Shown one piece after another: positions 1-29,004 of a stretch of 29,004 nt of DNA. The position numbers were made by a program, and so were the translations under genes. Within the stretch, counting starts at the first letter, position 1. Each line of letters opens with the position of its first letter. This stretch comes from a virus (taxonomy: Duplodnaviria > Heunggongvirae > Uroviricota > Caudoviricetes): IMG/VR virus record IMGVR_UViG_643348547_000007; one strand, written 5' to 3'. The notes beneath the pieces were generated by a model, which saw only the letters and a list, made by a program, of their open reading frames with translations, made no database searches and was not told where the DNA came from.

Positions 1-1284
1 TTACAGACTTCTTGAAGGTTGCGCAGCTGCTACAACACGCGGTTGATCTTCCGCGGCATCTTCCAGTGCACTTAAATCACGGTCTTTCACTTCTGGCATT
101 TTCAGCGCAGAGATTAAACCAATCACTGAATATGCCATGATCATAATGGCGATCGGATACCAGGATTCCGTCATGGTGCAGAAAATACCCGCCAGGATAG
201 GACCAAAACCGGAAGCGATAAGACCACCAATTTCTTTAGAAATAGCCATCCGGGTAAAGCGGTTTTTACAGCCGAACATTTCTGCCATGGTAATGTTTTC
301 CAGAGCAAATAATCCCAGCACCGCACAGTTATGAATCACAATCAGTGCAACCATAATGGTGCTCGGGGCATAGCTTTTATCTACGATGATAGAAAGCATT
401 GGCCACGCCAGCACAATCGCAGAGGTATTCATAATAATATACGGGATCCGGCGACCTATTTTATCGGATAACCAACCAAGGAACGGAATGGTCATAAAGC
501 CGAGAATCGAACTGATCATCAATGCATCTGTTGGAATTGCTTTGTTAAACAATAACGTCTGCACTAAATAGCCTGCAAGGAAAGTCTGAATTAAACCGGA
601 GTTACCAGCCTGACCAAAACGCAGCCCTGTTGCCAGCCAGAAGGATTTGCTCTGGAACATGCTACCAGCAGGTGCAGGTTTTGCTGTCGGTTGGTTACTG
701 TCGTTAACCTTCTCAAAGACCGGGCTTTCTTTCAGATTCATACGCAACCAGATAGCAAAGACCATCACGACAACGCTCGCCAGGAAAGGTATACGCCATC
801 CCCACGCCAGCAGTTCCTCTTTACTGAGAATGAAGAACATAAAGGCCCAGATTGCCGTTGCGCTCAAGGTTCCGCAGTTAGTTCCCATAGCCACAAATGA
901 GGAGATAATTCCGCGCTTACCTTTTGGCGCATATTCCGCCAGCATCGTACCGGCACCGGAAATTTCCGCGCCAGCCCCCAGCCCCTGAATAATACGCAGC
1001 GTCACCAGCAAAATTGGCGCAAACACACCAATTTGTGCATAGGTCGGCAGCACACCAATTAAGGTGGTACAGATCCCCATCATGGTGATGGTAATAAAGA
1101 GCACTTTTTTACGCCCTATTCTGTCGCCCATTTTGCCGAAAATAAATGCTCCGACAATACGTGCCACATAACCTGCACCATAGGTTCCCATTGCCAGAAT
1201 TAACGCCATTGCCGTTGACGATTCAGGAAAAAATATTTCATGAAAAACTAACGCTGCGCCGAGCGAATATAACTGGAAATCCAT
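1..1284 (-). CDS. ydfJ: MFS (metabolite:H+ symporter-type) transporter, 427 aa; N-terminus appears to begin inside the first conserved motif, consistent with a 5' end replaced at a prophage junction
   Basis: Complete 427-aa ORF with its stop at positions 1-3; hydrophobic multi-TM protein with MFS-like motifs (GxLxDRxGRKK-type loop). Its position next to ydfK and pin matches the Qin-type prophage context as I recall it. Confidence 0.75.
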   Translation of the reverse strand: MDFQLYSLGAALVFHEIFFPESSTAMALILAMGTYGAGYVARIVGAFIFGKMGDRIGRKKVLFITITMMGICTTLIGVLPTYAQIGVFAPILLVTLRIIQGLGAGAEISGAGTMLAEYAPKGKRGIISSFVAMGTNCGTLSATAIWAFMFFILSKEELLAWGWRIPFLASVVVMVFAIWLRMNLKESPVFEKVNDSNQPTAKPAPAGSMFQSKSFWLATGLRFGQAGNSGLIQTFLAGYLVQTLLFNKAIPTDALMISSILGFMTIPFLGWLSDKIGRRIPYIIMNTSAIVLAWPMLSIIVDKSYAPSTIMVALIVIHNCAVLGLFALENITMAEMFGCKNRFTRMAISKEIGGLIASGFGPILAGIFCTMTESWYPIAIMIMAYSVIGLISALKMPEVKDRDLSALEDAAEDQPRVVAAAQPSRSL

Positions 1285-1525
1285 AATTCACAGGTGTTTT
1301 TTCCCATCCTGTGGTTTCCTTGGCGTTTTCTAGGTTTTTTCAGATAGTTGCATTTTTTAAAAAGCATCCTAAGTTCGATCTCAGTGTCTATCTGGGGCCT
1401 ATTTCTGTCCCATATATGCCCCAAAAAAACTCCTCAACAGATAAGTAGTTTTTTCATGGAGTTACGCGTAAAATCAATAACGGCTGGAAATCATTCAATA
1501 CTCGCACTATCGAAAAATTTACCAG

Positions 1526-1569
1526 CCAACCGCAGCACGTTCTTGCATAAGGCGTGTCTGCGGTTTTTC
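1526..1569 (+). terminator. Intrinsic-terminator-like hairpin (interrupted ~10-bp stem CCGCAGCACG/CGTGTCTGCGG, then TTTTT) in the ydfJ-ydfK spacer
   Basis: Inverted repeat at 1530-1539 and 1553-1563 followed by a T-run at 1564-1568, read directly from the sequence; no upstream plus-strand gene identified. Confidence 0.3.
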
Positions 1570-1887
1570 AACTATTCAGATACATCACTCCCATCACATT
1601 CATTCCTCCGCATCAAAGGCATATAGGCTATATCACCTTGATATTTTTCTTCTTCAGATAAAAACTGTTATCTATGTATACTTTTAAACCCAATCCGTGT
1701 AGAGTCTCTGCATAAGATAGTTTGCAGTTGCCACTTCAGCTTGCGCCATAAACCGCCTGATTTTTGCCGCCATCTGTTAGCATTCCTGTATACCTGAAAC
1801 GACAATGTTTATCTACGAACTTTAAGAACACCCAGGATAAAAATTGTCAACTATATCATATATAACACATTACTAATTCGAGGCTAT

Positions 1888-2001
1888 ATGAACAGCATAC
1901 TGATAATCACTTCGCTCCTTATCATATTCAGCATTTTTAGTCATGCTCTAATAAAATTAGGGATTGGCATATCCAATAACCCAGACAAAACCGATGTATA
2001 A
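1888..2001 (+). CDS. Candidate small hydrophobic protein (37 aa, [37 protein letters not shown]), single predicted TM helix
   Basis: ATG at 1888 preceded by GAGG 4 nt upstream; uninterrupted 37-codon frame to TAA at 1999-2001; strongly hydrophobic core. Below the 60-aa cutoff of the supplied ORF track. Confidence 0.35.
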
Positions 2002-2069
2002 GTCAACATATCCTGAATCAGACATACAATATCGCAATGAAAATCAATAATATTTTAAGGAATATATTC

Positions 2070-2303
2070 ATGAAATCAAAAGACACCCTAAAGTGGTTCC
2101 CTGCGCAGCTTCCTGAAGTCAGAATTATCCTAGGGGATGCTGTAGTGGAAGTAGCAAAACAGGGAAGACCTATCAATACCAGAACATTGCTTGATTACAT
2201 TGAAGGAAACATAAAGAAAAAATCATGGCTGGATAACAAAGAATTATTACAAACAGCGATATCAGTTCTTAAAGACAACCAAAATTTAAATGGTAAAATG
2301 TAA
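2070..2303 (+). CDS. ydfK: Prophage cold-shock-type small protein (YdfK/YnaE family), 77 aa from the internal ATG
   Basis: ORF 2037-2303; likely true start is ATG 2070 (MKSKDTLKWF...) preceded by AAGGA; sequence matches the YdfK/YnaE prophage family from memory. Confidence 0.7.
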   Translation: MKSKDTLKWFPAQLPEVRIILGDAVVEVAKQGRPINTRTLLDYIEGNIKKKSWLDNKELLQTAISVLKDNQNLNGKM

Positions 2304-2619
2304 TATAATAAACTTACTTTTTTATCATTTTTCCACTTTAACAACATTTTGCTCCACTTTTCCACGACCAAACAACTTGAAATCTGGTTAAAATAACACG
2401 CAACACTATTCTTCTTCCTTGAGTCCGCCCGGAACTCGAAAAACAAACCGAGTTAAAGCCATTTTTCACAAAATCGATTTTGGGTCTCACCAAAATTACG
2501 GGGTTGCATACGCATTCGTTTATTTTCGAACGTGTACATACAAACATGCACAAAAATAATCAAAATTATTTTCTGAGATGCATTATGATATGAACACCAA
2601 TTTCGTATAGAGTCTCACT

Positions 2620-2982
2620 ATGTCTCGAATTTTTGCTTACTGTCGGATATCAACGCTGGATCAGACCACCGAAAATCAACGCCGGGAAATCGAAAGTGCA
2701 GGTTTTAAAATCAAACCTCAGCAAATAATCGAAGAACACATTAGCGGCTCAGCAGCAACCAGTGAGCGTCCTGGTTTTAACCGGTTGCTTGCTCGCCTGA
2801 AATGTGGTGATCAATTGATTGTGACAAAACTGGATCGCCTTGGTTGTAATGCAATGGATATCAGGAAAACAGTGGAACAACTGACCGAAACAGGTATCAG
2901 AGTGCATTGCTTAGCATTGGGGGGCATTGACCTGACCAGTCCAACAGGAAAAATGATGATGCAAGTAATTTCAGCAGTCTGA
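2620..2982 (+). pseudogene. pin: Serine recombinase / DNA invertase (Pin/Gin/Hin family), truncated after codon 120 by IS629; the TGA stop is supplied by the first 3 bases of the IS
   Basis: N-terminal resolvase catalytic domain ([15 protein letters not shown]..., catalytic Ser in the RIST motif). Full-length invertases are about 190 aa; the C-terminal HTH is absent. The ORF ends exactly at the IS629 inverted repeat (2980). Confidence 0.85.
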
Positions 2983-3021
2983 ACCGCCCCGGGTTTCCTG
3001 GAGAGTGTTTTATCTGTGAAC

Positions 3022-3912
3022 TCAGGCTGCCAGATCATCGTTTCCGATGGAAGCATAATAAGCTTTTTCTGCTTCTGCCGGAGGAGTATGGCCCAGCCTT
3101 TCCAGCAATCGTCGATTGTTATACCAGTCCACCCACGTGAGTGTGGCCAGTTCCACTTCTGCACGGTTTTTCCAGCTCTTACGGTGTATTACCTCCGCTT
3201 TGTAAAGACCATTGATGCTCTCCGCCATCGCGTTGTCATACGAGTCGCCTGTACTTCCTGTTGATGCCAGTAATCCGGCTTCCTTAAGCCGCTGTGTGTA
3301 GGCCAGCGATACATACTGAGAACCTTTATCACTGTGATGGACCGTGCCGGACGGTCGACGGGCCCATAACGCCTGCTCCAGTGCATCCAGCACGAATGTC
3401 GTTTCCATGGACGATGAGACCCGCCACCCCACGATGTATCCGGCAAACACATCAATGATGAACGCCACATAGACGAAGCCCCGCCATGTGCTGACGTAAG
3501 TAAAATCAGCCACCCACAGCTGGTCAGGTCGTTCTGCCACGAACTGACGGTTTACGCGGTCGCCTGCGGCAACGGCTTTCCGGCTGATGGTCGTACGGAC
3601 CTTTTTACCCCGGAGAACACCGGCAAGTCCCATAACCGCCATGAGACGTGCCACAGTGCATCTGGCCACTCTGATACCTTCCCGTAACAACTGACGCCAG
3701 ACTTTACGCACACCGTATACCTTGTGATTTTCATCGTATACGCGCTGTATCTCTTTCTTCAGCCAGTCATCGCGCTGCGCACGGGCACTGCGTTTATCCG
3801 GATGATGTCGCTGTTGCTGACAGTGGTAATACGTTGACGGGGCAATATGCAGTTCGCTGCATAGCGGTCCGACCCCGTACTGCTCACGCAGCTTATCCAG
3901 CAGTGGCATCAT
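3022..3912 (-). CDS. IS629 OrfB (DDE transposase catalytic part, normally made as an OrfAB frameshift fusion), 296 aa
   Basis: ORF overlaps the orfA end in the -1 frame, as is typical of the IS3 family; DDE-type integrase-core sequence. Confidence 0.9.
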
Positions 3913-4235
3913 TTTTTCCAGAGGCGGTCGAACTCCGCCTTCGCAAAATAAGCGGAAGCCTGGCGAAGGATATCGTTACTGCGGCGCAGTTCACGATTTT
4001 CACGTTCCAGCTCTTTCAGACGCTGACGTTCAGCGGTGGTGAGCCCTCCATCACCGCCCCCGGTATCCCGCTCATGCTGGCGAACCCAGACACGCAGAGT
4101 CTCCGGCGTACAGCCAATCTTTGGAGCAATGGAACAAATTGTCGCCCATTGTGAGTCATATTCGCTCTGACTTTCCAGAACCATACGGACTGCCCGTTGA
4201 CGGACTTCGGGGGAAAAACGAGTATTTTTAGTCAT
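3909..4235 (-). CDS. IS629 OrfA (transposase N-terminal, HTH/leucine-zipper part), 108 aa
   Basis: [21 protein letters not shown]... translation; identical ORF present in the second IS copy at 28199-28525. Confidence 0.9.
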
Positions 4236-4240
4236 CCTGT

Positions 4241-4894
4241 TTACCTCTTTCTCAGGAAGTTTAGTCTCCAGGATTCCCGGGGCGGTTCAACCAGACGTTC
4301 GTACATTACACCTTCGGCAACAAGGCCATTGCTGGAAATAGCTTCAGGAGCATCATTCTCGTTAGCTGGTCGCCAGTGAACAAACTGAGGGGCAATTTCT
4401 CCTACTTCCTCGGCAATCAATCCATAGAATCCCCAATCGCGCCTGTCATTTTCGCATTGCGACCTGTACCACACAGGGCGCATCCTGAAAATGAGATCGG
4501 CGTGCTCCGAATCTATCGTCTCTACTGAATGTTTATAGCGGATAGACGATGTGGACCGCAGTACAGACGAAATTGCGGGGTCAGGATTAAGATAAAGGTT
4601 TGCCGCCGCTGTAGTCGTGCCCAATCCCCACAAATAAAACGCTTCACGACCAGTCAGCGGGTAAAAATCTCCACCATAACGACCACTTTCCAGATCGTTC
4701 ACTTCCACTTTGTTTTTCAGCTTATTATCAACTTCAGTTTTTGTGTATCTGGTGCTGATATCCTGCTTTGCACTGGTCATATCAGTCTGAAGCGTTGATA
4801 CTTTTCCGTTAATTGAGGAAATATCTTCCTTGGCTTTACTGACATCTCCCTTTAACGTGGTGATGTCTCCTGGAATTACTGTCGATGTAGCCAT
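4241..4894 (-). pseudogene. Tail-fibre-associated protein with a coiled-coil N-terminus, 3'-truncated by IS629 (native part 4290-4894; last 16 codons are read from IS sequence)
   Basis: Own start with a GAGGGAGA Shine-Dalgarno before ATG 4894; Ser/Thr/Lys-rich heptad-like N-terminus; the ORF runs across the IS629 boundary at 4289/4290. The C-terminal region is loosely reminiscent of fibre intramolecular-chaperone domains (tentative). Confidence 0.55.
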
Positions 4895-4903
4895 TTGTCT
4901 CCC

Positions 4904-5185
4904 TCACATCCAGCCACGAAGTTGATGCTCAACAACAATCGCGTATTTATCGAATATTGACGATTTTTTTGCATCATTAATGATGCGCACGTTTACAAAA
5001 TATCCGTCCTCCTTAACACATACCGGTTCGCCATCTTCAGTCAGTTCTCCGGTTTCTTTGTACACGTTACCTATCACGTCAATAAGAATATCATCCTGCA
5101 TCGACTCGTCATCATAATAGCCAATACTCTCCATAAAGGCCGAAAAGTCGGCCCTGTCTGCAAATTTGAGCGTTAAATCTTTCAT
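4904..5185 (-). CDS. Hypothetical acidic 93-aa protein, translationally coupled to stf (ATGA overlap)
   Basis: ATG 5185 overlaps the stf TGA (5182-5184); strong GGGGGAGAG Shine-Dalgarno; no family recognised from the sequence. Confidence 0.55.
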   Translation of the reverse strand: MKDLTLKFADRADFSAFMESIGYYDDESMQDDILIDVIGNVYKETGELTEDGEPVCVKEDGYFVNVRIINDAKKSSIFDKYAIVVEHQLRGWM

Positions 5186-7581
5186 TTAATACTCTCCCCC
5201 ATTTGCGCATCAGTTAATTCTTTATGCCAGAGACGAAGATTTCTCAAATGGCCGAATAGATGACGAGTTCCCGATGTGGCTTGACCTCCAATTCGAATAA
5301 AGGTCCGTGTTTTTACGCCCGTCCACTCCGTTTTCATGGTTTTAGTAGCCTCACCGTTAGAAACTACTCGTTTAGTACCATCAGAATAAATATTAAAACC
5401 ACCAATGAATTTTCGAACATCAGTTCGACCAGCAAACACACTAGAAACGTAAGTACTTGTCGACGCTTTATAAGTTTGCATATAAAGCTGACCGTAATAT
5501 TTCTCAGTTGTGTTAAAAGCGTATGTAATTGACTCAATAGGTGGCACACCAGAAAAATCAAAAATACGCGGTGCTACATTAGGAGGAATATCGCCCCAAT
5601 TTCTATTAACCTCGACCAGGCACGTAAGCGGTCTATTATAGATATTATTTTCAGTTGGGATCGTCACCATATCACTGGAGCGGGTTGCGGGTACAGTTGT
5701 CGTAATAACAAAAGATGAAGCACATCCGCCGTTTTCAAATTGTGGTGTTGCAAGGTAAATATAATCTCCCGCTTCAGTTACACCACCTTTTTTCGGCGCA
5801 TACTGAATCATTGCGCCAATTAAGGTTTCACCTTCAACAGCTTCTATAGTTGCCTCATAGAAAATCCACCCTGTAACCGGATCTTTAGTTGCAGTAGCTG
5901 CTATTCTATTGGCTGCTCCGCCAGTTTTTTCTATTATCAGAGTTCCGAAAGTTAAATAAGCATCTCCTAAAAATGTATAAACCGACCCATCGTATTTTTC
6001 AAAACGCAAACGACAACGAAGACCATCAGGAGCTTTAACCCTGCATGAAACAGTGCAATACTTATTATCGCCACTAACATCAATCCCCCGGGATGCACTG
6101 CATGTATGCAGACTAAGTGCAGATGATTGTCCTGTCATATTATCTTTTGTTCGCATTTTGGCATATGAAAAACCAAATTCATCAACACCATTATTAGTTT
6201 TATCGATATTGCTGGTACTCGTCCATTCAGCGGGGATATTGGATTTAACAAAATAGTTAGTGCGCTGTCCTTCAATCAATAAACCTTCTTTTTCAAATCG
6301 TGGCTCATCAATTTTAGCAACACTAAATACGCCTGATTTATTGATATATGTGGCAGTTGATGCGCGTTTAAACTTTACAACCTTATCGCCAGGCATCGTT
6401 ATTTCATCATCACCAATAACAATCTTTTTATATGACGGCGAAAAGCCCGTAATCATATCCAGTGAATCGTTAAACGGTATCCACACATCGGGAAGCGGCT
6501 GCAAAACTTGTTTATACGGCTCCGCAGCCTGGCTTGCATACTCTCTGGCTGCGTCTTCACTTGCTTTTGCAGCCGTCTGGCTTGCTGCCGATGCTTTCGC
6601 TGAGTTAGCCGCCGCAGTCTCGCTCGCCTTTGCGTTGGTTTCACTGGTTTTTGCAGCTTTTTGACTGTTGGCTGATGCAGAGGCAGAAGAAGCCGCCGCA
6701 CTTGCAGAACCAGCTGCGGCACTCTCGCTTTGGGCTGCTGCATCCTGACTGTTTTTCGCCGCAGTTTCACTGGCTTTGGCATTCGTTTCGCTGGTCTTCG
6801 CTGCCGTCTGGCTGGACTTTGCGTTAGTTTCACTCGTCTTCGCAGCTTTCTGGCTGTTAGCCGCAGCAGTTGCTGATCCAGTTGCTGAAGTCGCAGAACC
6901 GGCTGCCGCGCTCTCGCTTTGGGCTGCTGCAACCTGGCTGTTTTTTGCCGCAGTTTCACTGGCTTTGGCATTCGTTTCGCTGGTCTTCGCTGCCGTCTGG
7001 CTGGACTTTGCGTTGGTTTCGCTCGTCTTTGCGGCTGTCTCGCTATTTTTCGCGTTGGTTTCTGATTTTTTGGCTGCTGTCGCGGAGTTTTCTGATGCAG
7101 TCTGTGAGGTCGCTGCCGCCTGTGCACTATTAGCTGCATTCGTTTCTGAGGTTTTCGCCGCGTTCTTCGATGATGCCGCTGCAGTTTCGGATTTCTTTGC
7201 CGCCGCTGCGCTCTGAGAGGCGGCTTCGGCGTTGCGTGCCGCTTCTTCCACCATTTCCTCAAAACGACGCAATGCCTCCGGCATGACATCATCTTCCGTC
7301 ATGGCACCGAGAAAATCATTCAGCGTACCTGGTCTGGAACCTTCATAGACGGTAATGGTTCCGGCATGTGAAGGCGGAAAACCTTCAACAAGCAGGATAA
7401 CGCTGTACTGGCCATACTCAACATCCATGCTGTAACGCCCGGCTTCATCCGGATTTTCAGAGGCCACCGTGTTCACCAGTACCGTGGTGCTGTTACGCTT
7501 TGCCTTCAGTTGAATAGTGCAGTTCTGTATTGGTTTTCCCGCACCATCTTTCAGCACACCTGAGATTTTTACTGCTGCCAT
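5182..7581 (-). CDS. stf: Side tail fibre protein (lambda Stf-like N-terminal domain, Ala/Ser/Thr-rich fibre repeats, divergent lectin-like C-terminal domain)
   Basis: N-terminus MAAVKISGVLKDG...GTITVYE matches the lambda Stf N-terminal domain from memory; likely start is ATG 7581 with GGAG upstream (the track's 7587 start is a GTG). Central KTSETNAKxSETAAK repeats. Confidence 0.85.
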   Translation of the reverse strand: MAAVKISGVLKDGAGKPIQNCTIQLKAKRNSTTVLVNTVASENPDEAGRYSMDVEYGQYSVILLVEGFPPSHAGTITVYEGSRPGTLNDFLGAMTEDDVMPEALRRFEEMVEEAARNAEAASQSAAAAKKSETAAASSKNAAKTSETNAANSAQAAATSQTASENSATAAKKSETNAKNSETAAKTSETNAKSSQTAAKTSETNAKASETAAKNSQVAAAQSESAAAGSATSATGSATAAANSQKAAKTSETNAKSSQTAAKTSETNAKASETAAKNSQDAAAQSESAAAGSASAAASSASASANSQKAAKTSETNAKASETAAANSAKASAASQTAAKASEDAAREYASQAAEPYKQVLQPLPDVWIPFNDSLDMITGFSPSYKKIVIGDDEITMPGDKVVKFKRASTATYINKSGVFSVAKIDEPRFEKEGLLIEGQRTNYFVKSNIPAEWTSTSNIDKTNNGVDEFGFSYAKMRTKDNMTGQSSALSLHTCSASRGIDVSGDNKYCTVSCRVKAPDGLRCRLRFEKYDGSVYTFLGDAYLTFGTLIIEKTGGAANRIAATATKDPVTGWIFYEATIEAVEGETLIGAMIQYAPKKGGVTEAGDYIYLATPQFENGGCASSFVITTTVPATRSSDMVTIPTENNIYNRPLTCLVEVNRNWGDIPPNVAPRIFDFSGVPPIESITYAFNTTEKYYGQLYMQTYKASTSTYVSSVFAGRTDVRKFIGGFNIYSDGTKRVVSNGEATKTMKTEWTGVKTRTFIRIGGQATSGTRHLFGHLRNLRLWHKELTDAQMGESIK
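6700..7077 (-). repeat. Tandem duplication of about 189 bp (63 codons) within the stf repeat region, embedded in shorter fibre-repeat periodicity
   Basis: CTCTCGCTTTGGGCTGCTGC and the following roughly 100 bp recur at 6722 and 6911 with few mismatches; the protein shows AAKTSETNAKSSQTAAKTSETNAKASETAAKNSQ twice. Confidence 0.6.
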
Positions 7582-7591
7582 ATCCACTCCA

Positions 7592-28144: not shown

Positions 28145-28198
28145 TGAACCGCCCCGGGAATCCTGGAGACTAAACTTCCTGAGAAAGAGGTAAACAGG

Positions 28199-28525
28199 AT
28201 GACTAAAAATACTCGTTTTTCCCCCGAAGTCCGTCAACGGGCAGTCCGTATGGTTCTGGAAAGTCAGAGCGAATATGACTCACAATGGGCGACAATTTGT
28301 TCCATTGCTCCAAAGATTGGCTGTACGCCGGAGACTCTGCGTGTCTGGGTTCGCCAGCATGAGCGGGATACCGGGGGCGGTGATGGAGGGCTCACCACCG
28401 CTGAACGTCAGCGTCTGAAAGAGCTGGAACGTGAAAATCGTGAACTGCGCCGCAGTAACGATATCCTTCGCCAGGCTTCCGCTTATTTTGCGAAGGCGGA
28501 GTTCGACCGCCTCTGGAAAAAATGA
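28199..28525 (+). CDS. IS629 OrfA (second copy), 108 aa
   Basis: Translation identical to the copy at 3909-4235. Confidence 0.9.
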
Positions 28526-28939
28526 TGCCACTGCTGGATAAGCTGCGTGAGCAGTACGGGGTCGGACCGCTATGCAGCGAACTGCATATTGCCCCGTCAA
28601 CGTATTACCACTGTCAGCAACAGCGACATCATCCGGATAAACGCAGTGCCCGTGCGCAGCGCGATGACTGGCTGAAGAAAGAGATACAGCGCGTATACGA
28701 TGAAAATCACAAGGTATACGGTGTGCGTAAAGTCTGGCGTCAGTTGTTACGGGAAGGTATCAGAGTGGCCAGATGCACTGTGGCACGTCTCATGGCGGTT
28801 ATGGGACTTGCCGGTGTTCTCCGGGGTAAAAAGGTCCGTACGACCATCAGCCGGAAAGCCGTTGCCGCAGGCGACCGCGTAAACCGTCAGTTCGTGGCAG
28901 AACGACCTGACCAGCTGTGGGTGGCTGATTTTACTTACG
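28522..28939 (+). pseudogene. IS629 OrfB, 3'-truncated or interrupted after about 139 codons
   Basis: Identical to copy 1 OrfB up to ...QLWVADFTY, then unrelated sequence (GVPGVQGGHGCLNEPRVCLEY) to the window end. Confidence 0.8.
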
Positions 28940-29004
28940 GTGTGCCCGGAGTTCAGGGCGGGCATGGATGCTTAAATGAACCGCGAGTCTGTCTGGAATA
29001 TTGA

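What the first reader, a model, noticed from the sequence alone, without database searches (positions are those of the whole stretch)
4290..5185. Two unrecognised genes where tfa is expected: a 93-aa acidic protein coupled to stf, and a truncated coiled-coil fibre-like protein
In lambda, stf is followed by tfa. Here it is followed by a 93-aa acidic ORF whose ATG overlaps the stf stop (ATGA) behind a strong Shine-Dalgarno, and then a 217-aa ORF whose 3' end is cut by IS629. Neither resembles lambda Tfa. The coupling suggests a dedicated fibre chaperone or adaptor; the second gene may be a separately encoded distal fibre segment or a cargo gene.
Basis: partly seen in the sequence, partly recalled or inferred. 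Interest (0 to 1): 0.5.

Follow-up and report, generated by a model that had tools for sequence, protein, structure and literature searches.

The report
Two-part side tail fibre cassette, IS-damaged
The two genes after stf belong to a widespread three-gene tail-fibre cassette of E. coli phages (long fibre, small helper protein of unknown role, short second fibre); here an IS629-linked deletion has cut off the end of the second fibre gene.

Summary
On the minus strand an intact 801-aa stf (5182-7587) is followed by a 93-aa acidic ORF (4904-5185) whose ATG overlaps the stf stop. Nine bases later comes a 217-aa ORF (4241-4894). Only 201 of its codons (4290-4894) are genuine; the rest reads into IS629.

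Neither gene is novel as a gene. Both belong to a conserved cassette found in lambdoid prophages and in virulent Tequintavirus, Seuratvirus/Nonagvirus, Drexlerviridae and Dhillonvirus phages. The cassette comprises:
- a lateral fibre ending in a ConA/LamG-like domain;
- a ~92-aa protein (PHROG 1361, function unknown);
- usually a second fibre with a conserved N-terminal peptide (MxTxTxIPxDIxxLK) and a C-terminal self-cleaving chaperone domain (Peptidase_S74).

Published models of the IrisVonRoten homologues treat the first and third proteins as proximal and distal fibre.

Intact relatives encode 234 aa. An 865-bp IS629-adjacent deletion removed the last 33 codons, a 97-aa membrane-protein gene and the tfa remnant.

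The small protein has no Tfa, Pfam or solved-structure relative. It always follows the LamG-tipped fibre and persists in one clade that lacks the second fibre. I read it as a Stf-dedicated assembly or attachment factor; its role is inferred, not shown. Interest is modest.

The parts
5182..7587 (-). stf: 801-aa side tail fibre. Lambda-type N-terminal attachment domain, Ala/Ser/Thr-rich coiled-coil repeats, and a C-terminal ~440 aa made of a GTA head-spike-fibre domain plus a ConA/LamG-like domain ending ...RHLFGHLRNLRLWHKELTDAQMGESIK.
   Evidence: Pfam phage_tail_N E 6e-67. NCBIfam GTA_spike_fiber, residues 437-637. PHROG 1419 over the full length. Sub-threshold Laminin_G_3 on the last 182 aa, E 5e-4. 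44% identity over 749 aa to IrisVonRoten Gp22, the 'proximal fiber'.
5192..5199 (-). Shine-Dalgarno GGGGAGAG, 6 nt upstream of the 93-aa ORF's ATG and inside the end of stf.
   Evidence: Read directly from the sequence.
4904..5185 (-). 93-aa acidic protein (PHROG 1361, function unknown), translationally coupled to stf through an ATGA overlap.
   Evidence: PHROG 1361 E 2e-46 over the full length; no Pfam or NCBIfam hit. 50 clusters at 50% identity among 1.8 billion proteins. AF2 pLDDT 88, compact alpha/beta fold. No informative fold match. dN/dS about 0.3.
4290..4894 (-). Codons 1-201 of the second (distal) fibre gene. Intact relatives encode 234 aa.
   Evidence: 100% identical to the CE10 homologue up to the junction. 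PHROG 3299 C-terminal part E 3e-123.
4820..4894 (-). Conserved N-terminal ~25-residue peptide MATSTVIPGDITTLKGDVSKAKEDI, the putative docking module. It is followed by coiled coil to about residue 65.
   Evidence: Invariant columns across 234-, 345- and 351-aa variants. Shared with IrisVonRoten, AKFV33 and Drexlerviridae homologues. As an ORF start it was found only directly downstream of a PHROG-1361 gene: 111 of 111 real cases.
4290..4549 (-). Remnant of the intramolecular chaperone domain (Peptidase_S74), residues 116-201. Ser116 and Lys121 are present; the C-terminal helix (33 aa) is missing.
   Evidence: Pfam PF13884 27.4 bits against a cut-off of 22. S116 and K121 invariant. Aligned to the DT57C LtfA ICD, 8hqz_d residues 952-1067, E 7e-7.
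4241..4289 (-). 16 foreign codons plus a stop, read through into the IS629 end. Not part of the gene.
   Evidence: Alignment with the CE10 IS end. Terminal repeat TGAACCGCCCCGGG.
2980..4289 (-). IS629 (IS3 family, 1310 bp). orfA 3909-4235, orfB 3022-3912. Inserted in pin. Its right flank carries no target duplication.
   Evidence: CE10 has a GTC duplication on both sides; the window has it on the pin side only.
2620..2979 (+). 5' part of the pin-type recombinase gene, cut by IS629 at the same junction as in CE10.

Best explanation
The two ORFs are genes 2 and 3 of a conserved lateral-fibre cassette of E. coli siphoviruses.

- Gene 1 (stf here) makes the proximal fibre. It attaches to the tail by its lambda-Stf N-terminus and ends in a ConA/LamG-like lectin domain with an almost invariant last ~40 residues.
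- Gene 2 (93 aa) is made in step with Stf by translational coupling. I infer that it is a Stf-dedicated accessory protein acting on that conserved C-terminal end, either helping the fibre end fold or capping it. I further infer that, with the Stf end, it provides the site where gene 3's conserved N-terminal peptide docks.
- Gene 3 is a short trimeric distal fibre: docking peptide, coiled coil, a small tip, and a C-terminal intramolecular chaperone domain. That domain folds the trimer and then cleaves itself off at Ser116, using a Ser/Lys dyad.

In this window an 865-bp deletion next to IS629 removed four things: the last 33 codons of gene 3 (the chaperone domain's C-terminal helix), a 97-aa membrane-protein gene, the old tfa remnant, and the 3' part of pin. 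The distal fibre is therefore probably unable to assemble. stf and the 93-aa gene remain intact.

Shown: gene identities, synteny, conservation, the truncation.
Inferred: physical interactions, the role of the 93-aa protein, loss of function of the truncated gene.
For: Cassette and synteny:
- The same order, fibre then ~90-aa gene (start overlapping or abutting the fibre's stop) then a 9-13 nt gap then the second fibre, is seen in 15 inspected loci. These cover lambdoids, Tequintavirus, Seuratvirus/Nonagvirus, Drexlerviridae and Dhillonvirus.
- The small protein occurs in 161 phage records.
- In 110 IMG/VR loci with flanks, 108 have the upstream fibre's LamG-end motif and 2 have a frameshifted remnant of it.
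- 86 of the 110 are followed by the second fibre at a 9-nt gap.
- The second fibre's N-terminal motif, as an ORF start, always lies behind a PHROG-1361 gene: 111 of 111.

A conserved island flanked by variable sequence:
- The last ~27 stf codons, the small gene and the first ~15 codons of gene 3 are 88-89% identical in DNA to 2G7b, ESCO3 and Tritos. The rest of both fibre genes does not match at that level.
- Between the window and 2G7b the small protein is 90% identical, while the last 160 aa of Stf are 41% identical.

Other support:
- The small gene persists without a second fibre in one clade of 23 loci, which includes the isolated phages Lambda_ev203 and 4A7. ORFs there are intact and pN/pS is 0.37.
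- Gene 3 has Peptidase_S74, invariant S116 and K121, and a match to the LtfA ICD. Short full-length homologues occur in about 45 virulent Drexlerviridae.
- IrisVonRoten Gp22 and Gp24, homologues of genes 1 and 3, are modelled as proximal and distal fibre (PMC11990801). AKFV33 ORF137, the gene 1 homologue, was detected in virions by mass spectrometry (PMC3326045).
- Deletion.
Against: - No direct evidence exists that the 93-aa protein binds Stf or the second fibre, or that it is or is not in virions.
- The correlation of the small protein's divergence with the adjoining fibre ends (Mantel rho 0.75 and 0.57) can be explained by linkage alone.
- The clade lacking the second fibre is a single shallow lineage.
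- The fold has no characterised relative, so it gives no functional hint.
- Loss of function of the truncated gene rests on recalled knowledge of endosialidase ICDs, not on a test.
Confidence: 0.6

Rival explanations
1. The 93-aa protein is a structural joint or adaptor that stays in the virion. It would sit on the distal end of Stf and hold the N-terminal peptides of the distal fibre trimer, working like T4 gp35/gp36 at the long-fibre knee.
For: - The second fibre's N-terminal motif is found only behind this gene: 111 of 111. Every full-length match whose phage could be checked against one search also carries the small protein.
- The Stf end, small protein and fibre-2 N-terminus form one conserved island.
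- DT57C LtfB, which attaches to LtfA in another way, has a different N-terminus, and DT57C has no such small gene.
- Coupled, roughly equimolar expression with Stf.
Against: - The gene is retained, intact and under constraint, in a clade with no second fibre.
- No fold similarity to any known fibre connector.
- No virion detection was found in the papers read.
Confidence: 0.3
2. The 93-aa protein is a purely non-structural folding chaperone of the LamG-tipped Stf, taking the place of Tfa. The second fibre would dock directly on Stf.
For: - Obligate pairing with the LamG-ended fibre: 110 of 110.
- Retention without the second fibre.
- It occupies the position held by tfa in lambda, and it is small and acidic.
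- This Stf has no ICD and no Tfa of its own.
Against: - It stays 90% identical while the receptor-binding LamG domain drops to 41%. Tfa- or gp38-type chaperones, as I recall, follow the fibre tip they serve.
- ConA/LamG-like domains are usually taken to fold on their own; this rests on general knowledge and was not tested here.
- No homology to any chaperone family.
Confidence: 0.3
3. The two ORFs are decaying leftovers of earlier fibre-module swaps, with no present function.
For: - Gene 3 aligns to the C-terminal end (positions 1147-1361 of 1385) of a long single-chain fibre family, PHROG 3299.
- tfa remnants are stacked downstream in relatives.
- The window copy of gene 3 is truncated.
Against: - Both genes are intact, with their own Shine-Dalgarno sequences, in virulent plaque-forming phages of five lineages.
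- dN/dS is about 0.3.
- Spacing is fixed at 9 or 12 nt.
Confidence: 0.05
4. The 93-aa protein is an unrelated passenger, such as a regulator or anti-defence factor, that happens to sit between fibre genes.
For: Function unknown, and no structural or family clue.
Against: - Invariant position and translational coupling to the fibre gene in temperate and virulent phages alike.
- No PADLOC hit.
- It moves with the fibre ends, not with other genome regions.
Confidence: 0.05

Closest known systems
IrisVonRoten (Bas32, Tequintavirus) lateral fibre locus gp22-gp23-gp24, and AKFV33 ORF137-136-135 (LtpA / hypothetical / LtpB)
   Same: - Same three-gene order and spacing.
- Window Stf is 44% identical to Gp22 over 749 aa, including the whole C-terminal 440 aa.
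- The small protein is 37% identical to gp23.
- The second fibre shares the N-terminal MxTxTxIPxDITxLK peptide and a C-terminal ICD.
- The authors model Gp22 as the proximal fibre with a protruding galectin-like domain and Gp24 as the distal fibre (PMC11990801).
   Different: - Here the proximal fibre carries a lambda-Stf N-terminus rather than a T5 Ltf N-terminus.
- The distal fibre is the short 234-aa type with a ~115-aa mature part, not the 574-aa T-shaped dual-RBD type.
- The copy here is truncated by IS629.
- The small protein is not given a role in those papers.
Branched lateral fibres of T5-like phages DT57C and DT571/2 (LtfA + LtfB) and phiEco32 gp14/gp15
   Same: - A second fibre protein rides on a first one that anchors to the tail.
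- Both carry receptor-binding parts (PMC4728585, PMC10713586).
- The ICD of the window's second fibre matches the LtfA ICD, 8hqz_d, E 7e-7.
   Different: - DT57C has no small gene between ltfA and ltfB.
- The LtfB N-terminus is unrelated to the motif here.
- LtfA ends in its own ICD rather than a LamG-like domain, and LtfB is thought to attach mid-shaft.
Lambda Stf/Tfa (also P2 and Mu fibre/chaperone pairs)
   Same: - Same genome position after J and lom.
- Same N-terminal Stf attachment domain (Pfam phage_tail_N).
- A small gene directly follows the fibre gene.
   Different: - The C-terminal half of Stf is unrelated: lectin-type domains rather than a gp37-like tip.
- The 93-aa protein has no similarity to Tfa/Caudo_TAP.
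- An extra fibre gene follows.
- A true tfa remnant lies further downstream in relatives.
Intramolecular chaperone domain fibres and spikes (K1F endosialidase, T5 pb1; Peptidase_S74)
   Same: The second protein has the S74 domain with the Ser/Lys pair at its start, placed C-terminally.
   Different: - The mature part is very short (~115 aa).
- It needs another fibre for attachment.
- The window copy lacks the domain's last 33 residues.
T4 long tail fibre knee (gp34-gp35-gp36-gp37)
   Same: Functional analogy only: a small non-fibrous protein encoded between the genes of two fibre segments could join proximal and distal halves.
   Different: No sequence or fold similarity was found. gp35 is, as I recall, about four times larger. 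A structural role for the 93-aa protein has not been shown.

Membership tests
Peptidase_S74 / intramolecular-chaperone tail fibre proteins (217-aa ORF) | Pfam PF13884 match above the gathering score | tested here: met
   27.4 bits against a cut-off of 22, residues 116-172. The same holds for the intact CE10 protein and for the 345-aa 2G7b variant at 52.3 bits.
Peptidase_S74 / intramolecular-chaperone tail fibre proteins (217-aa ORF) | Ser and Lys (Ser+5) at the start of the domain, the autocleavage dyad | tested here: met
   S116 and K121 are invariant in six homologues, 26-94% identical to the window copy. The identity of the dyad is recalled from endosialidase work, not tested.
Peptidase_S74 / intramolecular-chaperone tail fibre proteins (217-aa ORF) | Complete domain including the C-terminal helix | tested here: not met
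   The window copy stops at residue 201 of 234. The missing VPLIHHIQKLTERVDELESELKLL... is present in CE10, PhiR49_1 and IdasGreatGrand. The family assignment holds for the gene, but this copy is a truncated pseudogene-like allele.
Peptidase_S74 / intramolecular-chaperone tail fibre proteins (217-aa ORF) | Trimerisation and self-cleavage | not testable with these tools
   Needs expression and SDS-PAGE or mass spectrometry.
Lambda-type tail fibre assembly protein Tfa (Caudo_TAP) for the 93-aa ORF | Sequence match to Tfa/Caudo_TAP models | tested here: not met
   No Pfam, NCBIfam or PHROG Tfa family at E up to 0.1. No PDB sequence match with the family profile.
PHROG 1361 (unknown function) for the 93-aa ORF | Full-length profile match | tested here: met
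   E 2.2e-46, residues 1-93 on profile positions 1-92 of 92. Divergent members at 28-35% identity also match.
Three-gene LamG-tipped lateral fibre cassette (IrisVonRoten gp22-24 type) | Proximal fibre ending in the ConA/LamG-like domain with the ...GHxRNxRxW... end | tested here: met
   Window Stf ends RHLFGHLRNLRLWHKELTDAQMGESIK. Homology to Gp22 is shown. A sub-threshold Laminin_G_3 hit is shown.
Three-gene LamG-tipped lateral fibre cassette (IrisVonRoten gp22-24 type) | ~90-aa gene whose start overlaps or abuts the fibre stop | tested here: met
   ATGA overlap in the window. The overlap class is 4 or 1 nt in 109 of 110 loci.
Three-gene LamG-tipped lateral fibre cassette (IrisVonRoten gp22-24 type) | Second fibre with the N-terminal MxTxTxIPxDIxxLK peptide 9-13 nt downstream | tested here: met
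   MATSTVIPGDITTLK, 9-nt gap.
Three-gene LamG-tipped lateral fibre cassette (IrisVonRoten gp22-24 type) | Physical assembly of fibre 2 on fibre 1 | not testable with these tools
   Only AlphaFold-Multimer models published by others for the homologues (PMC11990801).
T4 gp35/gp36-type fibre joint proteins (93-aa ORF) | Fold or sequence similarity to a known joint protein | tested here: not met

The most novel reading that the evidence does not exclude
The ~92-aa PHROG-1361 protein is a previously undescribed structural joint. It would bind the invariant C-terminal strands of LamG-tipped lateral fibres and present a universal socket for the MxTxTxIPxDIxxLK peptide. Lambdoid, T1-like, T5-like, Seurat/Nonag-like and Dhillon-like phages could then swap distal fibres without touching the proximal fibre.
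Probability: 0.3. Interest if true: 0.55.

Novelty: new member of a known kind. Interest (0 to 1): 0.33.

Why it matters
For this window the result is mainly annotation.
- The 'missing tfa' is explained.
- The second ORF is a truncated distal fibre gene.
- The prophage's two-part side fibre is probably crippled by an IS629-linked deletion.

More broadly, one small gene is embedded in the host-range cassette of several of the best-used coliphage groups (BASEL phages, T5-like biocontrol phages, lambdoid prophages) and still has no assigned role. Knowing whether it is a chaperone or a joint would matter for engineering chimeric Stf or lateral fibres. It would also help in predicting host range from sequence.

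Tried and rejected
- Tfa-like chaperone by homology: rejected, no family hit.
- Defence or anti-defence role: no PADLOC hit.
The interaction could not be modelled.
- The search for related loci with the family alignment failed for lack of a conserved stretch. With one protein it gave only 6 loci. I replaced it with degenerate DNA patterns.
- The Mantel test of co-divergence is positive for the adjoining fibre ends. I do not count it as evidence of interaction, because linkage explains it.
- Literature: no paper in the library mentions PHROG 1361, VOG7707, ECP_1187 or FIG00639828. The AKFV33 proteomics covered four gel bands only, none of them the ~10-kDa ORF136 product. The Eligo lambda-Stf engineering preprint has nothing on this cassette.
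- Inversion between the two inverted IS629 copies as the origin of the junction: not excluded. A simple adjacent deletion suffices, because 4290-5300 is 100% identical to CE10.

Full report
**1. What is in the window**

All features of the finding lie on the minus strand.
- An intact 801-aa stf occupies 5182-7587.
- A 93-aa ORF occupies 4904-5185. Its ATG overlaps the stf TGA as ATGA, and a GGGGAGAG Shine-Dalgarno lies 6 nt upstream.
- Nine nucleotides after its stop, behind GGGAG, a 217-aa ORF runs from 4894 to 4241.
- The 93-aa protein is acidic: pI 4.3, with 20 D+E against 10 K+R.

The IS629 terminal repeat (TGAACCGCCCCGGG) ends at 4289. Only codons 1-201 of the 217-aa ORF (4290-4894) are genuine, and the last 16 are read from the IS.

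**2. Where it comes from and what the IS did**

The window is a lambdoid prophage in ydfJ, the Qin site. It closely resembles the prophage of E. coli O7:K1 CE10.
- Positions 1-4289 are 99.98% identical to CE10.
- Positions 4290-5300 are 100% identical to CE10.
- CE10 has 865 extra bases between these two stretches.

In CE10, IS629 sits in the pin recombinase gene with a clean GTC target duplication. The window has the same pin/IS junction but no duplication on the other side. No complete E. coli genome in the collection holds the window's junction. The simplest reading is an IS629-adjacent deletion.

That deletion removed four things:
- the 3' part of pin;
- a 3' remnant of a true tfa gene;
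- a 97-aa membrane-protein gene;
- the last 33 codons of the second ORF, which is 234 aa when intact.

This also answers 'where is tfa?'. In IS-free relatives a tfa fragment still lies downstream of these genes. It is a leftover of an older fibre module displaced by the present one.

**3. The 217-aa ORF**

The ORF has three parts:
- a conserved N-terminal peptide (MATSTVIPGDITTLK...);
- a coiled coil to about residue 65, then a ~50-residue tip;
- from Ser116 onwards, a Peptidase_S74 intramolecular chaperone domain.

Evidence for the chaperone domain:
- Pfam scores 27.4 bits against a cut-off of 22.
- The region aligns to the ICD of DT57C LtfA in PDB 8hqz, E 7e-7.
- Ser116 and Lys121 are invariant across variants of 234, 345 and 351 aa. 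These variants share the first ~25 residues and the ICD but differ completely in the middle.

That layout is what a separately encoded, exchangeable receptor-binding fibre segment looks like. Short full-length homologues (48-55% identity over the mature part) occur in about 45 virulent T1-like phages, where they are usually mis-annotated as an 'endosialidase chaperone'. The gene is therefore a fibre gene, not cargo. The window copy lacks the ICD's C-terminal helix. From what I recall of endosialidase ICDs, that should prevent trimer folding; this was not tested.

**4. The 93-aa ORF**

It belongs to PHROG 1361, function unknown (E 2e-46, full length). It has no Pfam, NCBIfam, PADLOC or PDB sequence relative.

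The family is small. It has 50 clusters at 50% identity among 1.8 billion proteins and is essentially confined to enterobacterial phages. Median dN/dS is about 0.3.

AlphaFold2 with a 25-sequence alignment gives a confident compact alpha/beta fold (pLDDT 88). The structure searches were uninformative:
- Foldseek against PDB: TM at most 0.46.
- BFVD: only uncharacterised viral proteins.

It is not a Tfa, gp38, gp57A or gp35 relative by any test I could run.

**5. The cassette**

tblastn finds the small protein in 161 phage records. These include lambdoids (PhiR49_1, 2G7b, IdasGreatGrand, ev203), Tequintavirus (IrisVonRoten gp23, AKFV33 orf136), Seuratvirus/Nonagvirus, Drexlerviridae and Dhillonvirus.

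In every locus inspected the order is the same. A lateral or side tail fibre of 580-810 aa comes first. The small gene follows, its start overlapping or abutting the fibre's stop. After a 9-13 nt gap comes a second fibre gene.

The first fibre always ends with the same sequence...RHLFGHxRNxRIWHKxLTDxQ. This is the end of a ConA/LamG-like domain. The Laminin_G_3 match is sub-threshold (E 4e-4), and the published IrisVonRoten model calls this domain 'galectin-like' (PMC11990801).

Two independent degenerate-pattern scans of IMG/VR quantify the association:
- Of 110 loci holding the small gene with enough flank, 108 have the LamG-end fibre directly upstream and 2 have a frameshifted remnant of it.
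- 86 of the 110 are followed by the second fibre. 23-24 are instead followed directly by the 97-aa membrane-protein gene.
- Conversely, the second fibre's N-terminal motif at an ORF start lay behind a PHROG-1361 gene in 111 of 111 real cases.

**6. What the pattern says about mechanism**

Three stretches form one conserved island: the last ~27 codons of stf, the small gene, and the first ~15 codons of the second fibre gene. The island is 88-89% identical in DNA between the window and 2G7b, ESCO3 and Tritos. Both fibre bodies differ outside it. Between the window and 2G7b, the small protein is 90% identical while the last 160 aa of Stf are 41% identical.

The small protein therefore does not follow the receptor-binding surfaces. 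It follows the two fibre ends that would meet in a proximal/distal junction.

It is also kept, intact and under constraint (pN/pS 0.37), in a clade with no second fibre, which includes the isolated phages Lambda_ev203 and 4A7. Its primary partner must therefore be Stf.

I conclude that it is an Stf-dedicated accessory protein acting at the conserved distal end of the fibre. Whether it leaves after assembly (chaperone) or stays as a cap or socket for the second fibre (joint) is open. I give the two roughly equal weight. DT57C LtfA/LtfB, the experimentally supported branched fibre, uses a different arrangement: no small gene, a different LtfB N-terminus, and LtfA ending in its own ICD (PMC4728585, PMC10713586).

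**7. Comparison with the literature**

- The BASEL papers note that lateral fibres of these siphoviruses can consist of one or several proteins (PMC8594841).
- They model IrisVonRoten Gp22 as the proximal fibre and Gp24 as the distal fibre (PMC11990801).
- Window Stf is 44% identical to Gp22 over 749 aa.
- AKFV33 ORF137 was found in virions. ORF136, the small-protein homologue, was not among the four gel bands analysed (PMC3326045).
- I found no paper that assigns a role to the small protein.

**8. Verdict**

'Unrecognised' and 'cargo' do not.

The locus is a new, IS-damaged member of a known kind of two-part lateral fibre cassette. The one open item is the role of the PHROG-1361 protein. It is a well-posed but modest question for phage host-range biology and fibre engineering.

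Noticed in passing
window 28145-29004: A second IS629 copy, inverted relative to the one at 2980-4289, starts at 28145 just beyond the terminase genes and runs off the window end. The prophage is therefore bracketed by inverted IS629 copies. This could mediate an inversion and might be involved in the junction at 4289/4290.
   Followed up: partly
L001 6652-6945 (CE10); also L143 4292-4585 and L142 4292-4585; deleted from the window: A 97-aa protein with 2-3 predicted membrane helices (PHROG 1443, function unknown) closes the fibre cassette in lambdoid relatives. It comes either after the second fibre or directly after the small protein. It is absent from the virulent phages inspected. A lysogeny-related role such as exclusion is a guess only.
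   Followed up: partly
window 6450-7290 and L001 7948-10347: The Ala/Ser/Thr-rich repeat region of stf produces long spurious ORFs on both strands (279 aa, 146 aa, 134 aa). In CE10's RefSeq annotation the stf homologue is split into four CDS, including a plus-strand 'hypothetical protein'. The window's stf is one intact 801-aa ORF and differs from CE10's by 2.1% and 9 gaps.
   Followed up: partly
window 1-1284 and 2620-2979: ydfJ is truncated at the prophage boundary (the Qin integration site). The pin-type invertase gene is split by IS629 at the same position as in CE10, so any fibre-switching inversion system here is dead.
   Followed up: partly
L142 (phage 4A7) 1417-3833: Phage 4A7 carries an insertion sequence (three transposase CDS) where the 3' part of its stf should be. 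It still keeps the small gene and the 97-aa gene, next to sitABCD cargo.
   Followed up: no
phage records OR848352.1 ('Listeria phage LM 4-14-1') and the 'Campylobacter phage' records: Records labelled as Listeria or Campylobacter phages carry fibre-cassette sequence 100% identical to T5-like coliphages. They look mislabelled or contaminated.
   Followed up: no
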